The notes under the pieces were generated by a model. The model was not told where the DNA came from. It saw only the letters and a list, made by a program, of their open reading frames with translations, and made no database searches. From a virus: a stretch of DNA of 64,000 nt. The stretch lies in the IMG/VR virus record IMGVR_UViG_3300032307_000797. The stretch is one strand, 5' to 3'. Of the stretch, positions 7,607-61,988 are shown one piece after another (position 1 is the first letter of the stretch; the number at the start of each line of letters is the position of its first letter). The position numbers were made by a program, and so were the translations under genes.

Positions 7607-7636
7607 AAAAAAAAAGAGGATTTTACTCCTCTTTTT
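7607..7636 (-). terminator. Intrinsic terminator
   Basis: AAAAAGAGGA/TCCTCTTTTT stem overlapping the glutaredoxin stop; T run on the minus strand. Confidence 0.75.
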
Positions 7637-7913
7637 CTTCAATCATGTATTCTTTTATAATATTTATTGCCTCTTCTTCCCCATGAAAATCCCTTGTGGG
7701 ACAGAAAACAGGCCCTGTATTGGTCCCTTCTTGTCTAATAAAGAATGTAGGTAGATAATCTAATTTTGTTTGTTCGAGTACTTGGTCCCATAGTTTTTTA
7801 TTACTGTTGACCTCATATTCTGTAAACGGAATTGATTCTTTACCCAAACGAGTTTTCAAACTTTTACAAGCTCCACAACCATCAAGGGTAAATAGGATTA
7901 GTTTATTAGCCAT
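7623..7913 (-). CDS. Glutaredoxin/NrdH-like redoxin
   Basis: LFTLDGCGAC motif, IPFTEYEV, cis-Pro motif YLPTF. Confidence 0.85.
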   Translation of the reverse strand: MANKLILFTLDGCGACKSLKTRLGKESIPFTEYEVNSNKKLWDQVLEQTKLDYLPTFFIRQEGTNTGPVFCPTRDFHGEEEAINIIKEYMIEEKEE

Positions 7914-15356: not shown

Positions 15357-15914
15357 TTACGTTGTTCTTCTATCTCTTAACATTGGTTCCATTGCTGAGA
15401 TAAATGTTGGTTTAAACTTAACTAGTTTATCAAACATTTCTAATGTCTCATTTTCAATTGGTAACATGTCTGAATTAATATATAAACCGCTTTCGTTTCC
15501 TGCAATCATTACAAAATTGATATCTAAATCGGTGATTGACCCATCTAATCTAATTTGTTGTTCGTCAATCGTAAAACCCGGATTTAAATCCGATAATTGA
15601 GCAACTTGTTGTCTGAATGAATCGATTAACTGACTGATACTGTTTTTCTCGTCATCTTTTAGTTTTGTGTCCTCTTGGTCGGTTGAGATTAATTTTACCT
15701 CAACTTCATTAACTACCTCAACATTATCAAATTTCTCTTGGTATGATTCAGGACTTGGAACGTCATCTCCCGGTTCTGAAGGTTGTGGTTCTGATGGTTG
15801 CACGTCTTCAGTTAAGATTGACGTATTCTTGGATAGTTTTGATTCATTAAGGTTTCTCATTGTACTGAGCATTCCCTTAATCTCATCATAAGCTGTTTGT
15901 TTCTTTGTATTCAT
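15357..15914 (-). CDS. Hypothetical acidic protein
   Basis: 185 aa; TATTTATA at 15957-15964 upstream. Confidence 0.75.
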   Translation of the reverse strand: MNTKKQTAYDEIKGMLSTMRNLNESKLSKNTSILTEDVQPSEPQPSEPGDDVPSPESYQEKFDNVEVVNEVEVKLISTDQEDTKLKDDEKNSISQLIDSFRQQVAQLSDLNPGFTIDEQQIRLDGSITDLDINFVMIAGNESGLYINSDMLPIENETLEMFDKLVKFKPTFISAMEPMLRDRRTT

Positions 15915-16509
15915 CTTTTAAAAATATTCTAAAATTAAACGAAGGGTTTATATCTGTATAAATATTTGAAAAATTGGATTTACAGACAACTCCGTGGAAT
16001 TTTAAGACATTTTCCAAATATCCTTGGGATGGTACGGTTTGGTAGGGGATATCATGAGTATCGCATAGATACTCACACAACTTAGTAATTGACTCCATTT
16101 GGGAATCACTGTATCTGTCCCAGAAGTAATAATTTCTCCAATTACGAGCAAATGGTTCTGACCTATATGGGTCCCCAATCCAATTATTCATGAATCCCGT
16201 TATAGTATTCTTATGTAACCAACCGAGATTCTCTATAGCAATTTTGATGAATTGTTTGTCAATTTTAGGTTCATCAAAAGTATTCGAATAGTGTTTAGTA
16301 TCGAATAGTTGATATATGGTACCTAATTTGGTGATAACAAAGTGTGGGACTTCGTCGTACTTGCCGTTTCTTCTGTGTCTAATTTTATTTAAAAAATCAT
16401 CGGCTCTACGTCCCGTATCGTATAAGAATATTTGTGTTTTCTTGGATTTCCTCTTAGTAATATTAAGAGTTTTACTATCTAAACCTTCTACGTTGTGTAT
16501 TTCCAACAT
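15886..16509 (-). CDS. N-acetylmuramoyl-L-alanine amidase (Amidase_2/PGRP fold), probably catalytically degenerate
   Basis: PHFVI...GTIYQL, IAIENLG, YSDSQMESI...L, TDINPSF; the expected Zn-binding His positions read LYDT and VCKS. Confidence 0.75.
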   Translation of the reverse strand: MLEIHNVEGLDSKTLNITKRKSKKTQIFLYDTGRRADDFLNKIRHRRNGKYDEVPHFVITKLGTIYQLFDTKHYSNTFDEPKIDKQFIKIAIENLGWLHKNTITGFMNNWIGDPYRSEPFARNWRNYYFWDRYSDSQMESITKLCEYLCDTHDIPYQTVPSQGYLENVLKFHGVVCKSNFSNIYTDINPSFNFRIFLKDEYKETNSL

Positions 16510-16684
16510 TCCTCGTTATAATTTTTCTCATCGGGGCTTGTCTAATTGTTGGTGTTTCATCAATCGTTTGTTCCCCCGTATTATCGTCACTTTCCCAATA
16601 AATTGAATCACTATTAGTAGAAACCTCTTCTTCCAAACCATAATTTGGAGTATCTTGATTGGAGGGGACTTCTGCTTCTACTAC
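16475..16684 (-). other. -1 frame extension (69 codons) of the 16681..18030 membrane protein after the A10G slippery run
   Basis: GAA AAA AAA AAG TAG; the -1 frame reads VVEAEVPSNQDTPNYGLEEEVSTNSDSIYWESDDNTGEQTIDETPTIRQAPMRKIITRNVGNTQRRRFR*. Confidence 0.65.
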
Positions 16685-18030
16685 TTTTTTTTTTCTTCCT
16701 CAGATTCATCCGTCGGAAGTGGTGTTTCAATTATTTCTGATGTTGGTTCTTCAATTATCGGTGTTGGTTCAATTTCTACGGGCTCCTCGATAACCTCATC
16801 AACCGGTTCTTCTATTTCCTCAACAATCGGTGTTGGGGTTGGTTCAGGGGTTTGTATTTGATTAAGAGCGTTGTCCAACTCTTCGGTATATTCAAACCCA
16901 TATGGTTTTTCAGGTTCGTTAATTTCTTCTTCAATAACAGGGGTCGGAGTCTCAACAATTTCTTCATTAACTATTAGTGTGGGAGTTTCCATAATTTCCT
17001 CCTCAATTACAGGAGTTGGGGTCTCGATAACTTCTTCAACAACAATCGGTGTTTCAGTTATTTCGACAATATTTTCCTCTGTTATGAAACCATCATATCC
17101 ATCTAATGCAACTTCTTCAGGAACCACATCAACTTGTGGCGTTTCGATTACAGGTTGTTCTTCCGTCTTTACATCATCGGTTGAGTATCCGTAATCCTCT
17201 CTTTCTTCATATTGTTCTTTAATTGAATCAAGAGTTTCATTTGTTATTTGCGGCGTATTGTTGTTATCGGTAAGGTCCCAAAAATTCTCATTGATTATTT
17301 TCATGAACTCTTCGGGAACATCTTTAGTTGAGATGTTAAATTCCTCTTTAACTTTTGGAGTTTCTTCAGGGGTGGATTGTGGTGTCTTGTTTAATAACTT
17401 TTCAAGTGCCATTAAATCTTCTTCAGACAAACGGATTCTTGATACTTCCCCCACAATATCTTTAGCGTCAACAGTTGGGATTTCTTCTTTGATTGGTTCC
17501 TCAACCACATTATCGTTTGATTGAACGATATTTTCTTTTATCGGTTCATTTGACGATATTTCTTTATTCTCCTGTGTGAATTTAACTAACATGTGAAGGA
17601 ATGATAACGAAATTAACGGTAACATACCTCCCGAGAAAAATGCAAGGAATCTTTTATGTCCCACCAAATCTGTTGGCTCCACACCAATGAATTCAATTAG
17701 TGGTGAAACAAGTTCGACCCATGAAGTAAATGATGGACTATTGATGTCAATGTATGAATATGCAAAATAGATATTACCAATAAATTGTACCAAGGTCACA
17801 ATACCAAATGGGAAGTAAACCTTCTTACCCATATTTGCCGAAATTGCGGCAAGTGCTGATAAAGCAGCAATCTCAACACCAATGGAAAGGTATACCGCCC
17901 AAGTTAATGGGTTAGATATACCATACCATTTAGTAACGTGTGAAATCGATACAATTGCGACAGTTATAATCGGAATTAAAAATGCCGATATAATAAGTGT
18001 CTTGTAATTTCTATTAAACCAATTCTTCAT
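16681..18030 (-). CDS. Multi-pass membrane protein with long acidic E/P/T-rich tail
   Basis: About 4 hydrophobic helices in the first 150 aa; ETPTPVIEEEI-type repeats. Confidence 0.85.
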   Translation of the reverse strand: MKNWFNRNYKTLIISAFLIPIITVAIVSISHVTKWYGISNPLTWAVYLSIGVEIAALSALAAISANMGKKVYFPFGIVTLVQFIGNIYFAYSYIDINSPSFTSWVELVSPLIEFIGVEPTDLVGHKRFLAFFSGGMLPLISLSFLHMLVKFTQENKEISSNEPIKENIVQSNDNVVEEPIKEEIPTVDAKDIVGEVSRIRLSEEDLMALEKLLNKTPQSTPEETPKVKEEFNISTKDVPEEFMKIINENFWDLTDNNNTPQITNETLDSIKEQYEEREDYGYSTDDVKTEEQPVIETPQVDVVPEEVALDGYDGFITEENIVEITETPIVVEEVIETPTPVIEEEIMETPTLIVNEEIVETPTPVIEEEINEPEKPYGFEYTEELDNALNQIQTPEPTPTPIVEEIEEPVDEVIEEPVEIEPTPIIEEPTSEIIETPLPTDESEEEKKK

Positions 18031-18317
18031 TAATTCAACTTACCTTCTAATGTCTTTATTTCATTGTCGATTTGAGTTTGTCTGTTGACATCTAAGATTT
18101 TTCTATCTGTTGATTGAATCATTCTCTTCTCTGCCTTCAAACCTTCAATCTGTAAACGAAGATTTAACTCTTCTTTTGTGTAGGTGGAATCTTTAATCGT
18201 TTGAACTTCTTTTCTCATTTTAGATAGTTCTCTTCCATCACCACAGCTCTTGAAAAACCCAAGTAGGGCAATAGCAAGAACAATTACTGTAAAGTTATTT
18301 TGTACGAACTTTTTCAT
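18030..18317 (-). CDS. Membrane-anchored or lipoprotein-like coiled-coil protein (spanin-like?)
   Basis: Hydrophobic N-terminus ending FFKSCG, then coiled coil; late motif at 18330-18337. Confidence 0.6.
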   Translation of the reverse strand: MKKFVQNNFTVIVLAIALLGFFKSCGDGRELSKMRKEVQTIKDSTYTKEELNLRLQIEGLKAEKRMIQSTDRKILDVNRQTQIDNEIKTLEGKLN

Positions 18318-18328
18318 AATTTTTTATT

Positions 18329-19138
18329 TTATAAATAGTTTAGTAATCCATAACTATCGTTTCTCAGCTTTTTAAGTGCCTTGTCACGTAGTTGTCTGAT
18401 TCGTTCTTTGGTACATCCAAATTGTTCTCCAAGGTCCTCGAGATTCATCTCCACTCCCGTCAAACCATATGATTTTTCAATAATCACTTTTTCTCTATCA
18501 TCTAAGATTGACAACATCATATCAACTCTCTTCTTTACCTCAGCAGGAGTATTGAGTAGTGCTTCAGGGTCATCAGCGTCTCTATTAATGATAATGTCAA
18601 TTAGAGTATCTCCCTCTTCATTGATTTCATCACTTAGGTTTACACAGTGAGGTAAAACAAACTCTCGGCCAGTATCATCGTAGTTAATGAAGAATTGGTC
18701 ATCCTTTGGTTGTTCATTTTTCTGTTTCTTCTGATTTTCCTGAATGATGTTTGATGGTAACCGAATCATTCTAGCATTCTCGTTTAAAGATGCCATGATT
18801 GATTGTTTCACCCACCACACTGCATAGGAAATAAATTTAAACCCACTTTTGGGGTCAAATCTTTCTGCTGCTTTCATAAGACCAATATTACCCTCAGATA
18901 TCAAATCCATGATATCCATACCTTGTCCTTGGTATAATTTGGCAACGGTGATTACAAAACGAAGATTACCCACAACGAGTTCGTCGAGTAACTTCTGTTT
19001 TTCTGTTTTGGTAATGTCTTTTCGGATTAACTCCTTAAAAATCTCATCTTGTCTTTCGTGTGAGATTACCTTGATTTTACGGATGTCTTTGATGTACTGT
19101 TGTATCTCCTCCGTATTAATGAGAATAGATTTTGCCAT
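18329..19138 (-). CDS. RNA polymerase sigma-70 factor, Bacteroidota SigA-like
   Basis: NLRFVITVAK, DLISEGNIGLMKAAERFD...GFKFISYAVWW, IRLP, region 4 TKERIRQLRDKALKKLR. Confidence 0.95.
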   Translation of the reverse strand: MAKSILINTEEIQQYIKDIRKIKVISHERQDEIFKELIRKDITKTEKQKLLDELVVGNLRFVITVAKLYQGQGMDIMDLISEGNIGLMKAAERFDPKSGFKFISYAVWWVKQSIMASLNENARMIRLPSNIIQENQKKQKNEQPKDDQFFINYDDTGREFVLPHCVNLSDEINEEGDTLIDIIINRDADDPEALLNTPAEVKKRVDMMLSILDDREKVIIEKSYGLTGVEMNLEDLGEQFGCTKERIRQLRDKALKKLRNDSYGLLNYL

Positions 19139-24360: not shown

Positions 24361-24381
24361 TAAAAATATACGAAAAAAAAA
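24361..24381 (-). promoter_or_regulatory. Putative early/middle promoter
   Basis: Minus strand TTTTTTTTTCGTATATTTTTA. Confidence 0.6.
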
Positions 24382-24394
24382 TGATGATTCCAAA

Positions 24395-25000
24395 TTAATC
24401 ATCATACAGTGATGACATATCACTATTACGCATCATTCTACCTTTTTTACCAAACGCTTCGAGAGATTTTGTGATTGTGTCGAGTTGTTCCTTTAGATTT
24501 TTATTCTCTTCGGATAAACGATTTATTTCATCGTTATTGATTACTTCTTTAATCACCTCAACAGGTACCTGAACTTCCTTTATGATTTCAACGGGTACCT
24601 CGACTTTAACTTCTTTAATTACTTCTTTGGTTATTACTTGAGTTTTGCCCTTGATTTCAATTGGGACTTCTTTAACCACTTCAACGGGGACCTCTTTAAT
24701 AACTTCTTTAATGATTTCGACGGGAACTTCTTTGACAACCTCTTTGATAACTTCGACAGGTACTTCAACCTTTTTCTCCACGATTTTTTCAACCTCTTTA
24801 ATAATCTCTTTTTCAACTATAATTTCCTTTTCAATTATTTTAGGTTCCGATTTTGCACCTGTCGGTGTCTCCCCAAACTTCAATAACGAAAACCCCCTAT
24901 CGAAAACTTGTTTAGCAAGTTTCTCGGGGTCTTTAATTTCATTCAGTTCACAATACTGAAGAAACTCGTTATCTAACGTTAAGGAGGTTTTCTTCTTCAT
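24395..25000 (-). CDS. VPVE(V/I)IKE repeat protein
   Basis: About 100 aa of KEV(P)VE(V/I)IKE repeats followed by coiled coil. Confidence 0.8.
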   Translation of the reverse strand: MKKKTSLTLDNEFLQYCELNEIKDPEKLAKQVFDRGFSLLKFGETPTGAKSEPKIIEKEIIVEKEIIKEVEKIVEKKVEVPVEVIKEVVKEVPVEIIKEVIKEVPVEVVKEVPIEIKGKTQVITKEVIKEVKVEVPVEIIKEVQVPVEVIKEVINNDEINRLSEENKNLKEQLDTITKSLEAFGKKGRMMRNSDMSSLYDD

Positions 25001-61918: not shown

Positions 61919-61936
61919 AAAGTATACGAAAAAAAA
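61919..61936 (-). promoter_or_regulatory. Putative early/middle promoter of the replication operon
   Basis: Minus strand T-tract-CGTATACTTT. Confidence 0.55.
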
Positions 61937-61956
61937 ACCGGATTAAAAAATCCGGT
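61929..61956 (-). terminator. Intrinsic terminator
   Basis: Minus strand ACCGGATT-TTTT-AATCCGGT followed by a long T run. Confidence 0.8.
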
Positions 61957-61988
61957 CTTAAAGTTTTTCAAAAAAGTTTCGAGGAGTC

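What the first reader, a model, noticed from the sequence alone, without database searches (positions are those of the whole stretch)
16475..16700. Probable -1 frameshift or slippage extending an acidic membrane protein
Seen: 16681..18030 ends GAA AAA AAA AAG TAG TAG (ten A then G, containing A_AAA_AAG). The -1 frame stays open for 69 codons to 16475 and continues the same acidic E/T/P composition (VVEAEVP...IDETPTI). It ends in a basic tail (TQRRRFR) and fills the otherwise empty 170 nt gap, overlapping the amidase start. Known: A_AAA_AAG is a highly shift-prone bacterial heptamer (dnaX, IS elements), and runs of 9 or more A also cause RNA polymerase slippage. Inference: two isoforms of about 449 and 518 aa. 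This lies outside the usual tail-chaperone context for phage frameshifts.
Basis: partly seen in the sequence, partly recalled or inferred. Interest (0 to 1): 0.75.

Follow-up and report, generated by a model that had tools for sequence, protein, structure and literature searches.

The report
Poly-A slip site, three protein tails
A run of ten A's, preceded by a small RNA hairpin, at the end of a membrane-protein gene of an uncultured giant lake phage is a conserved slip site that lets one gene make a short protein and two longer versions with different tails, most likely because RNA polymerase stutters on the run.

Summary
ORF 16681..18030 (-) ends in A10-G-TAG-TAG, and the -1 frame stays open to 16475.

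It is neither an error nor chance. Of 120 homologue clusters, 109 stop right after the same E/L-K-K-K/N. In 97 related loci (67 distinct sequences) the run is A10 (54), A9 (7) or A11 (6). In every one the -1 frame carries a 34-152-codon extension, nearly always ending in the family's basic tail. That tail is in frame in a few lineages and in distant, shorter homologues.

Two things are new relative to the finding:
- An RNA hairpin abuts the run in most lineages, and its stem covaries.
- The +1 frame is also coding in about two thirds of lineages. Selection acts on the +1 frame for the first 22-35 codons and on the -1 frame after that.

mRNA with A10, A11 or A12 (or A9) would therefore give 449-, 518- and roughly 472-aa forms.

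Best reading: programmed recoding (about 0.9), most likely hairpin-assisted transcriptional slippage (about 0.6). Ribosomal frameshifting is not excluded. The protein's function is unknown.

Other agents of this scan reached similar conclusions on related phage genomes. I found no publication on it.

The parts
16681..18030 (-). Zero-frame ORF, 449 aa (short isoform). It has an N-terminal 4-TM domain, a small conserved helical region, and a long acidic Glu/Thr/Pro-rich linker predicted to be disordered, ending E-E-E-K-K-K.
   Evidence: 2658 homologues with E<=1e-3, all from viral or metagenomic sources. AF2 model of the in-frame homologue P0044: helices 2-36, 41-64, 72-91, 99-114, 122-165 and 193-238, with the rest below pLDDT 50.
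17566..18030 (-). Conserved 4-TM domain (residues 1-155). By the positive-inside rule both the N and C termini face the cytoplasm (inference).
   Evidence: Most invariant columns of alignments A1 and A6 lie here. It is shared with shorter homologues of 204-276 aa that have no A-run and carry an in-frame basic tail.
17392..17466 (-). Conserved cytoplasmic helical motif (residues 189-213). Some sources record weak PF08681 (TacA1-like) hits for this region.
   Evidence: Invariant columns A189-L213. Precomputed PF08681 hits. pLDDT 72-84 in the model.
16695..16719 (-). RNA hairpin directly 5' of the run. The outer stem is CUUCC/GGAAG, with an inner 4-bp stem and a UGAA loop. Its 3' base abuts the first A of the run.
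   Evidence: -7.9 kcal/mol; 0 of 63 control positions in the same gene are as stable; 6th percentile of synonymous recodings. Equivalent hairpins with different, covarying stems occur in most related lineages.
16685..16694 (-). A10 slippery run (T10 on the + strand), the recoding site.
   Evidence: The only invariant nucleotide block in a 22-lineage alignment. Run length is 9-11 in all 67 distinct shifted sequences.
16678..16683 (-). Tandem zero-frame stops, TAG TAG, 1 nt after the run.
   Evidence: In relatives the zero-frame stop begins 0-12 nt after the run, and within 4 nt in 63 of 67.
16614..16685 (-). +1-frame tail of 23 codons plus stop (P0122). It is basic and carries the conserved K-L-W-F-G motif. 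It would be read from mRNA with A9 or A12, giving a form of about 472 aa.
   Evidence: A conserved +1 peptide occurs in 34 of 51 distinct shifted lineages. In this segment the synonymous share of single-nucleotide codon differences is 49-63% in the +1 frame, against 17-31% (-1) and 8-21% (0).
16475..16684 (-). -1-frame extension of 69 codons plus stop. It would be read from mRNA with A11, giving the 518-aa long isoform. It carries the conserved N-Y-G-L-E and I-Y-W-E motifs and the terminal basic tail.
   Evidence: The same tail is in frame in P0025, P0041, P0044, P0083, P0086, L022 and L098. Downstream of the +1 stop, the synonymous share in the -1 frame is 0.75-0.76 in three groups.
16475..16509 (-). 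35-nt overlap between the end of the long isoform and the start of the Amidase_2-like gene. It is a possible site of translational coupling.
   Evidence: The same 35-nt overlap appears in the gene calls of L067, L068, L069, L150 and L151. There is no Shine-Dalgarno signal in this phage.
15886..16509 (-). Downstream gene: Amidase_2-like protein, 207 aa.
   Evidence: PF01510 E=8.9e-9; phrog_1493 endolysin E=0.003.
18030..19138 (-). Upstream context in the same orientation: a 95-aa protein (18030-18317, its stop overlapping the start of the membrane-protein gene) and a sigma-70 r2/r4 protein (18329-19138).
   Evidence: The gene order DUF6576 - sigma - ~95 aa - this gene - Amidase_2 is kept in relatives. 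No terminator-like site lies between these genes.

Best explanation
This is a programmed recoding site. The gene encodes a phage inner-membrane protein with four TM helices and a cytoplasmic, acidic, disordered C-terminal half. Near its 3' end lies a module that resembles an intrinsic terminator with A's in place of U's: a nascent-RNA hairpin directly followed by 9-11 A's, which is about the length of the RNA:DNA hybrid. I propose that the hairpin forms at the upstream edge of an all-A:T hybrid, lets the transcript slip, and that RNA polymerase adds (or drops) A's. Ordinary translation of the mixed mRNAs would then give three proteins with the same first ~449 residues. A10 gives the short form, which stops at once. 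A11 gives the 518-aa form, with an acidic extension and a conserved basic tail. A12 or A9 gives a form of about 472 aa with a short basic tail. The long form's reading frame runs 35 nt into the next gene (Amidase_2-like), so slippage may also set that gene's translation by coupling. Shown here: conservation of the run, the hairpin with its covariation, and selection on both alternative frames. Inferred: that the slip happens at transcription, its direction and efficiency, the coupling, and everything about function.
For: Conservation:
- 109 of 120 homologue clusters stop 0-3 codons after E/L-K-K-K/N.
- In 97 loci (67 distinct sequences) the run is A10 (54), A9 (7) or A11 (6), never shorter. 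It starts at two different codon positions, is followed by T, C or G, and sits between otherwise unalignable flanks.
- The shifted state is ancestral. In-frame lineages are few, scattered and nested within shifted ones.
- 13 identical contigs from different samples all have A10.

Both alternative frames are coding:
- The synonymous share is 49-63% in the +1 frame up to its stop, then 0.75-0.76 in the -1 frame in three of five groups (0.54 and 0.40 in the other two).
- The basic tail is in frame in 7 lineages and in distant homologues.
- Mapping by mRNA run length (n short, n+1 long, n+2 third tail) also holds for lineages whose DNA has A11 or A10+C. This fits a series of added A's.

Hairpin:
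- Its 3' end lies within 0-2 nt of the run. Mean energy is -5.7 kcal/mol, against -0.8 at control positions and -1.8 after synonymous recoding.
- 37 of 54 sequences fall at or below the 5th percentile of positional controls.
- Covariation: 100% and 95% of cells paired in A7 and A4, with 3 and 2 pairs changed on both sides. In a gapless stack of 13 sequences, 8 of 10 pairs show double changes, and slid controls pair at only 22-52%.
- It is weaker in in-frame lineages (mean about -2 against -5.9; Mann-Whitney p=0.0014).

Against a dnaX-type ribosomal signal:
- No conserved downstream structure; several lineages have about 0 kcal/mol in the 70 nt downstream.
- No Shine-Dalgarno usage in this phage.

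The phage's own terminators are a hairpin plus T9, so its polymerase responds to hairpin-homopolymer signals.

Precedents: slippage is efficient at runs of 9 A/T; Thermus dnaX adds one or more A's; a stem-loop 5'-adjacent to a 10-nt motif drives slippage in Roseiflexus IS630; tssM1 has A11 just before its stop.
Against: - There are no RNA or protein data, and the host and polymerase are unknown.
- Every run of 9 or more A's contains an in-phase A_AAA_AAA heptamer, so ribosomal -1 shifting (and -2/+1 shifting or sliding) remains possible and may contribute.
- The hairpins are modest (-4 to -12 kcal/mol). They are weak (weaker than -4 kcal/mol) or absent in 11 of 50 distinct shifted sequences.
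- The window's own hairpin is only at the 6th percentile of synonymous recodings.
- In the one studied stem-loop case (Roseiflexus) the outcome is a deletion, whereas the long isoform here needs an insertion.
- The link between hairpin loss and the in-frame state rests on only 4 phylogenetically independent pairs and is not significant.
- The third (+1) tail is missing in about a third of lineages.
Confidence: 0.6

Rival explanations
1. Programmed ribosomal frameshifting. Ribosomes slip -1 on A_AAA_AAA or A_AAA_AAG within the run (and +1/-2, or slide, to reach the third frame), while the mRNA is a faithful A10 copy.
For: An in-phase slippery heptamer is present in every lineage. A zero-frame stop follows within 0-4 codons, as at some shifty-stop sites. 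Ribosome sliding and frameshifting on runs of A are documented (PMC5009743; PMC4363877, listed).
Against: - Seven A's would suffice, yet no lineage has fewer than 9.
- There is no conserved 3' stem-loop or pseudoknot.
- There is no conserved Shine-Dalgarno-like stimulator, and the phage shows no SD usage.
- The conserved hairpin abuts the run, so it would be unwound inside the ribosome during the shift. Upstream hairpins are reported to attenuate -1 shifting (from memory, not checked here).
- Two alternative frames are used, which an insertion series explains more simply.
Confidence: 0.25
2. DNA-level phase variation. The homopolymer changes length during replication, so subpopulations of phage carry A10, A11 or A12 and each makes one isoform.
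For: Homopolymers of 10 are mutable. Two lineages (L150, L151) carry A11 in frame.
Against: - 13 identical contigs from different samples, and all close relatives at 92-98% identity, keep A10.
- The A11 in-frame state is itself stable across two lineages whose proteins are 83% identical.
- The other in-frame lineages differ by an added C, not by run length.
- The state maps cleanly onto the tree.
- A covarying RNA hairpin has no role in this model.
- Minor variants within samples could not be examined.
Confidence: 0.05
3. Artefact or decay: a homopolymer sequencing or assembly error, or a gene truncated by a frameshift mutation whose downstream remnant is no longer translated.
For: Homopolymers are error-prone, and no reads were available here.
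Against: The same state appears in 97 loci from JGI, ENA, NCBI and Logan assemblies. There is strong purifying selection on both downstream frames. Neither extension has a start codon of its own near the run. The run and hairpin are conserved while the flanks diverge.
Confidence: 0.02

Closest known systems
Citrobacter rodentium tssM1 and Yersinia pseudotuberculosis tssM (T6SS) transcriptional frameshifting (PMC4256274)
   Same: An inner-membrane protein gene whose stop codon is directly preceded by a poly-A run (A11 there). RNA polymerase adds A's, giving a truncated and a full-length variant, and both forms and their ratio matter.
   Different: That case is a bacterial gene; this is a phage gene. 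No stimulatory hairpin is described in the tssM abstract. Two variants are made there, against probably three here. Here the state is ancestral and conserved across a large, deeply diverged family rather than being a rescue in a few species. Transcript data exist for tssM and not for this gene.
Thermus thermophilus dnaX (tau/gamma) slippage on a run of nine (as described in PMC5009743)
   Same: A homopolymeric run of 9 or more. The mRNAs are heterogeneous, with one or several extra A's in diminishing proportion, and standard translation gives products with different C-termini.
   Different: In dnaX the shifted frames merely terminate early. Here both alternative frames encode conserved peptides, and a conserved hairpin abuts the run.
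Roseiflexus IS630 stem-loop-dependent transcriptional slippage (Penno et al., as described in PMC5009743)
   Same: A nascent-RNA stem-loop lies immediately 5' of a 10-nt slippage motif. Its geometry matches the 9-10-bp hybrid and it resembles intrinsic terminators.
   Different: The motif there is heteropolymeric (T5C5) and gives only a one-base deletion. Here it is a homopolymer, and the main conserved product needs an insertion. The hairpins here are AT-rich and weaker.
Shigella spa13/spa32 (as described in PMC5009743)
   Same: Slippage gives a C-terminally extended product. The end of its coding sequence overlaps the start of the next gene, and slippage affects that gene's expression.
   Different: Coupling here is only inferred from a conserved 35-nt overlap and the lack of a Shine-Dalgarno signal. 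The gene families are unrelated.
Paramyxovirus P/V/W editing (own knowledge; partly covered in PMC5009743)
   Same: Polymerase stuttering at one site gives three proteins with a common N-terminal part and three C-termini, one from each frame.
   Different: That is an RNA virus with an RNA-dependent polymerase and G insertions. It has no evolutionary relation to this case.
E. coli dnaX and IS-element -1 programmed ribosomal frameshifting; phage tail-chaperone G/GT frameshift
   Same: A slippery A-rich heptamer near the end of an ORF, giving two products with a shared N-terminus.
   Different: The stimulators that define those sites (an upstream SD, a 3' stem-loop or pseudoknot) are not conserved here. 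The gene is not a tail chaperone, and the run is always 9-11 nt long.

Membership tests
Programmed transcriptional slippage at a homopolymer (dnaX-Thermus / tssM type) | Run of about 9 or more identical A or T at the frame junction | tested here: met
   A10 in the window. A9-A11 in all 67 distinct shifted relatives, never shorter.
Programmed transcriptional slippage at a homopolymer (dnaX-Thermus / tssM type) | The alternative frame encodes a conserved, selected product | tested here: met
   Both the -1 and +1 frames show purifying selection in their own segments. The tail is in frame in some lineages.
Programmed transcriptional slippage at a homopolymer (dnaX-Thermus / tssM type) | mRNA population heterogeneous in run length while the DNA is uniform | not testable with these tools
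   No transcript or read data are available. DNA consensus sequences are uniform among close relatives.
Stem-loop-stimulated slippage (Roseiflexus IS630 type) | Nascent-RNA stem-loop immediately 5' of the slippage motif | tested here: met
   A hairpin ends 0-2 nt from the run. 37 of 54 sequences are at or below the 5th percentile of positional controls, and the stem covaries.
Stem-loop-stimulated slippage (Roseiflexus IS630 type) | Heteropolymeric motif giving a unidirectional one-base deletion | tested here: not met
   The motif here is a homopolymer. The long conserved product needs +1 nt (or -2 nt).
dnaX-type -1 programmed ribosomal frameshift | In-phase X_XXY_YYZ heptamer | tested here: met
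   A_AAA_AAG in the window. A_AAA_AAA is in phase in every lineage.
dnaX-type -1 programmed ribosomal frameshift | Conserved 3' stimulatory stem-loop or pseudoknot | tested here: not met
   Mean z of -0.9 for the 70 nt downstream. Several lineages have 0 to -3 kcal/mol. There is no conserved block in alignment A2.
dnaX-type -1 programmed ribosomal frameshift | Upstream Shine-Dalgarno-like stimulator | tested here: not met
   GAGG is present in the window's clade only and is replaced by unrelated sequence elsewhere. There is no SD signal upstream of 49 ORF starts.
Phase-variable (contingency) homopolymer | Run length differs among otherwise near-identical genomes | tested here: not met
   13 identical contigs and relatives at 92-98% identity all have A10. 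Variation within samples was not testable.
Holin / antiholin pair | Small membrane protein with a charged C-terminus next to an active endolysin, with two isoforms that have opposing roles | tested here: inconclusive
   In favour: 4 TM helices, basic C-terminal tails, and a position next to an Amidase_2-like gene. Against: 449-518 aa is very large, there is no holin family hit, and the catalytic status of the amidase was not verified.

The most novel reading that the evidence does not exclude
A terminator-like module (a nascent-RNA hairpin abutting a 9-11-nt A run) makes a bacterial-type RNA polymerase add 0, 1 or 2 A's in a fixed proportion. One phage gene would then yield three membrane-protein isoforms with tails from all three frames, like paramyxovirus P/V/W. 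The long isoform's translation would also gate the overlapping Amidase_2-like gene. The module is conserved across a large clade of uncultured freshwater jumbo phages whose hosts do not use Shine-Dalgarno sequences. This would be the first widely conserved case of hairpin-assisted homopolymer slippage with triple-frame use in a DNA phage.
Probability: 0.45. Interest if true: 0.8.

Novelty: new variant of a known kind. Interest (0 to 1): 0.7.

Why it matters
Recoding in tailed phages is known almost only from tail-chaperone and a few capsid genes, and it is attributed to the ribosome. This site matters for four reasons.
- It lies in a different gene class, a large membrane protein next to a sigma factor and an amidase-like gene.
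- It is kept across a large, deeply diverged family of uncultured phage lineages.
- It combines a homopolymer with a covarying upstream hairpin. Very few stimulators of transcriptional slippage are known (PMC5009743), so the many natural stem variants found here amount to a ready-made mutational series for testing how a nascent hairpin affects hybrid slippage.
- Gene callers truncate this protein in over 90% of database entries and miss both alternative tails, so the family is systematically mis-annotated.

Tried and rejected
- DNA similarity to 50,697 phage records gave no match. A protein search of the same set gave only the N-terminal domain at 34% identity in an unannotated 462-kb uncultured phage, so no cultured relative or annotation is available.
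- PHROGs, Pfam, the PDB sequence search and the protein atlas gave no informative family. Weak Sigma_reg_N and TacA1 hits were not pursued.
- The AF2 model of the in-frame homologue had pLDDT 51, and a fold search gave nothing above the helical-bundle noise (Z<=7.4).
- Covariance model R1, built from one hairpin type, was too sequence-specific, and its alignment A5 mixes spurious hits. It was not used for pair counts.
- MAFFT alignment A3 put gaps into the stems, so I used subgroup alignments A4 and A7 and a gapless stack instead.
- My first hairpin statistic did not actually force the last base to pair (seen). It was redone.
- I first read the in-frame lineages as giving the short form after adding one A. 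That was a frame mix-up. The correct mapping is +1 A for the third tail and +2 A (or -1 A) for the short form.
- I looked for further recoding sites at other runs of 9 or more A's in two ~288-kb relatives. About half of the runs were examined (the first 15 hits per genome plus all runs of 10 or more). All of these are intergenic or in frame.
- No tRNA genes were found in the window.
- The amidase-like protein gave no PDB sequence hit.
Full report
**Observation**

On the minus strand, ORF 16681..18030 (449 aa, P0001) ends GAA GAA AAA AAA AAG TAG TAG, with A10 at 16685-16694. The -1 frame stays open for 69 more codons to 16475 and ends in a basic tail. It overlaps the start of the next gene by 35 nt. 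That gene is an Amidase_2-like protein (PF01510, E=8.9e-9). A10 is the longest homopolymer in the 64-kb window.

The setting is a large uncultured phage:
- A ClpP-like protease, a sigma-70 r2/r4 protein and the amidase-like gene lie in one orientation.
- The protein's own cluster lies on a 318-kb contig.
- There is no DNA match to known phages.
- The only protein match in that collection is a 34%-identical N-terminal domain in an unannotated 462-kb uncultured phage.

**The site is conserved**

A protein search gave 2658 relatives. Of the 120 best cluster representatives, 109 stop within 0-3 residues after E/L-K-K-K/N, 5 run on to the same basic tail as the window's -1 frame, and 6 look truncated.

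I fetched DNA for 66 viral and 80 metagenomic loci, plus the in-frame cases. In 97 loci (67 distinct sequences):
- The run is A10 (54), A9 (7) or A11 (6).
- It starts at codon position 2 (50) or position 3 (17).
- It is followed by T (40), C (15) or G (12).
- The zero-frame stop begins 0-12 nt after the run.
- In every case the -1 frame carries an open extension of 34-152 codons (median 79), nearly always ending in the family's basic tail.

In a 22-lineage nucleotide alignment the run is the only invariant block.

Thirteen identical contigs from different samples all have A10.

More distant homologues (204-276 aa) have the 4-TM domain, a short linker and a basic tail in one frame, with no run.

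On a tree of the N-terminal domain, the seven in-frame sequences (L022, L067/L069, L068, L098, L150, L151) are scattered and nested among shifted ones (6 changes). The shifted state is therefore ancestral for this clade and has been maintained. The in-frame lineages differ by A11, or by an extra C after A10, and all keep the run.

**Both alternative frames are coding**

A note from another agent of this scan prompted me to look at the +1 frame. It is open for 23-38 codons in 34 of 51 distinct shifted lineages. It encodes basic peptides with conserved motifs, in the window P0122 at 16614-16685.

| Segment | +1 frame | -1 frame | 0 frame |
|---|---|---|---|
| Run end to +1 stop (five groups) | 49-63% | 17-31% | 8-21% |
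| After +1 stop, before the overlap with the next gene | n/a | 0.75, 0.75, 0.76 (and 0.54, 0.40) | n/a |

Values are the synonymous share of single-nucleotide codon differences. In the first segment the third position of the +1 frame is the most variable. In the second segment the third position of the -1 frame is the most variable.

So an mRNA with n A's gives the short form, n+1 gives the long form, and n+2 (or n-1) gives the third tail. The same mapping holds in lineages whose DNA has A11 or A10+C, with the default product shifted accordingly.

**A hairpin abuts the run**

Folding the upstream 45 nt showed a hairpin whose 3' arm ends at the first A in most lineages, with different stem sequences in different clades. 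I then used a statistic that forces the base 0-2 nt before the run to pair.

| Set | Mean energy (kcal/mol) |
|---|---|
| 54 distinct upstream sequences | -5.7 |
| Control positions in the same genes | -0.8 |
| After synonymous recoding | -1.8 |

- 37 of 54 lie at or below the 5th percentile of positional controls, and 28 of 54 at or below the 5th percentile of synonymous recodings.
- The window's hairpin (16695-16719) has -7.9 kcal/mol. None of 63 control positions is as low, and it is at the 6th percentile of synonymous recodings.
- Pair counts on two gapless subgroup alignments gave 100% and 95% of cells paired, with 3 and 2 pairs changed on both sides. Slid controls paired at 10-63%.
- A gapless stack of all 13 sequences of the 24-nt class gave 95% paired, with double changes at 8 of 10 pairs.
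- In-frame lineages have weaker hairpins (0, 0, 0, -1.5, -4.0, -4.3, -4.3, against a mean of -5.9; p=0.0014). With only 4 independent pairs this is suggestive, not shown.

No downstream structure is conserved. There is no Shine-Dalgarno signal upstream of 49 ORF starts. That pattern fits a Bacteroidota-like host, but this is inference only.

The phage's own intrinsic terminators are a hairpin plus T9.

**Mechanism**

Four features point to transcriptional slippage assisted by a nascent hairpin:
- a minimum run length of 9;
- a hairpin abutting a run as long as the RNA:DNA hybrid;
- the use of two alternative frames;
- the absence of ribosomal stimulators.

The review PMC5009743 gives the precedents. 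Slippage is efficient at runs of 9. Thermus dnaX adds one or more A's in diminishing proportion. In Roseiflexus IS630, a stem-loop 5'-adjacent to a 10-nt motif melts the upstream hybrid. Shigella spa13 slippage affects the overlapping spa32. tssM1 of Citrobacter has A11 directly before its stop and makes two required length variants.

From what I recall of terminator models, a hairpin that pulls a homopolymeric transcript back by one register would lead to one extra A, which is the direction needed for the long form. This step is inference.

Ribosomal shifting on the in-phase A_AAA_AAA heptamers cannot be excluded and may add to the effect.

**Function**

The function is unknown.
- The N-terminal 155 residues form four TM helices, probably with both ends in the cytoplasm.
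- A small conserved helical region follows.
- The rest, including both tails, is predicted to be disordered.
- No family or fold match was informative.
- The conserved 35-nt overlap with the amidase-like gene, in a phage without Shine-Dalgarno sites, suggests translational coupling to the long form.
- A role in lysis timing or in anchoring the amidase-like protein is possible but untested.

**Novelty**

Four literature searches found no description of this family or site.

Other agents of this scan reported the same family's site in other genomes, including the hairpin and the second tail. I re-derived both claims from sequence data here.

Noticed in passing
window 7607-7640, 24373-24410, 61929-61960 (read on the minus strand): The three A9 runs on the + strand are the U-tracts of minus-strand intrinsic terminators, each a hairpin followed by T9. 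Two of them share the same few bases after the T-run. So the polymerase transcribing this phage responds to hairpin-plus-homopolymer signals.
   Followed up: partly
window, 22 nt upstream of 49 ORF starts of 120 aa or more: There is no Shine-Dalgarno signal. G is about 10% at every position from -20 to -1, and the region is A/T-rich. This is as expected for phages of Bacteroidota-like hosts.
   Followed up: partly
window 15886-16509 (-): The Amidase_2-like protein reads L-Y-D-T where, as far as I recall, the family has its first zinc-binding His motif. The same motif is kept in relatives. No PDB sequence hit was found, so the catalytic status is unverified.
   Followed up: partly
L097:2680-2830 and L106:2600-2750: In one small lineage (A11) the -1 extension is only 34 codons. 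It ends before the basic tail, 4 nt upstream of the amidase-like start. This is a natural variant without the tail and without the overlap.
   Followed up: no
window 17392-17466 (-); P0018, P0033, P0042-P0047 and others: Some sources record weak PF08681 (TacA1, ribbon-helix-helix antitoxin) hits on the conserved R-x-R-L-S-E-E-D-L helix after the TM domain. Distant homologues give weak Sigma_reg_N hits (E=0.04). Both are below threshold, but the gene sits beside a sigma factor.
   Followed up: no
L022:3983-5563: This in-frame homologue has two A10 runs in the same gene, one at the usual site and one about 540 nt upstream, both in frame.
   Followed up: no
G001 (L012's 288-kb record) and G002 (L026's 287-kb record): About 22 and 30 runs of A/T of 9 or more per genome. 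About half were examined (the first 15 hits per genome plus all runs of 10 or more), and nearly all of these are intergenic. A few A9 runs lie in frame inside long ORFs (for example L166, L168, L161) with no frame break.
   Followed up: partly
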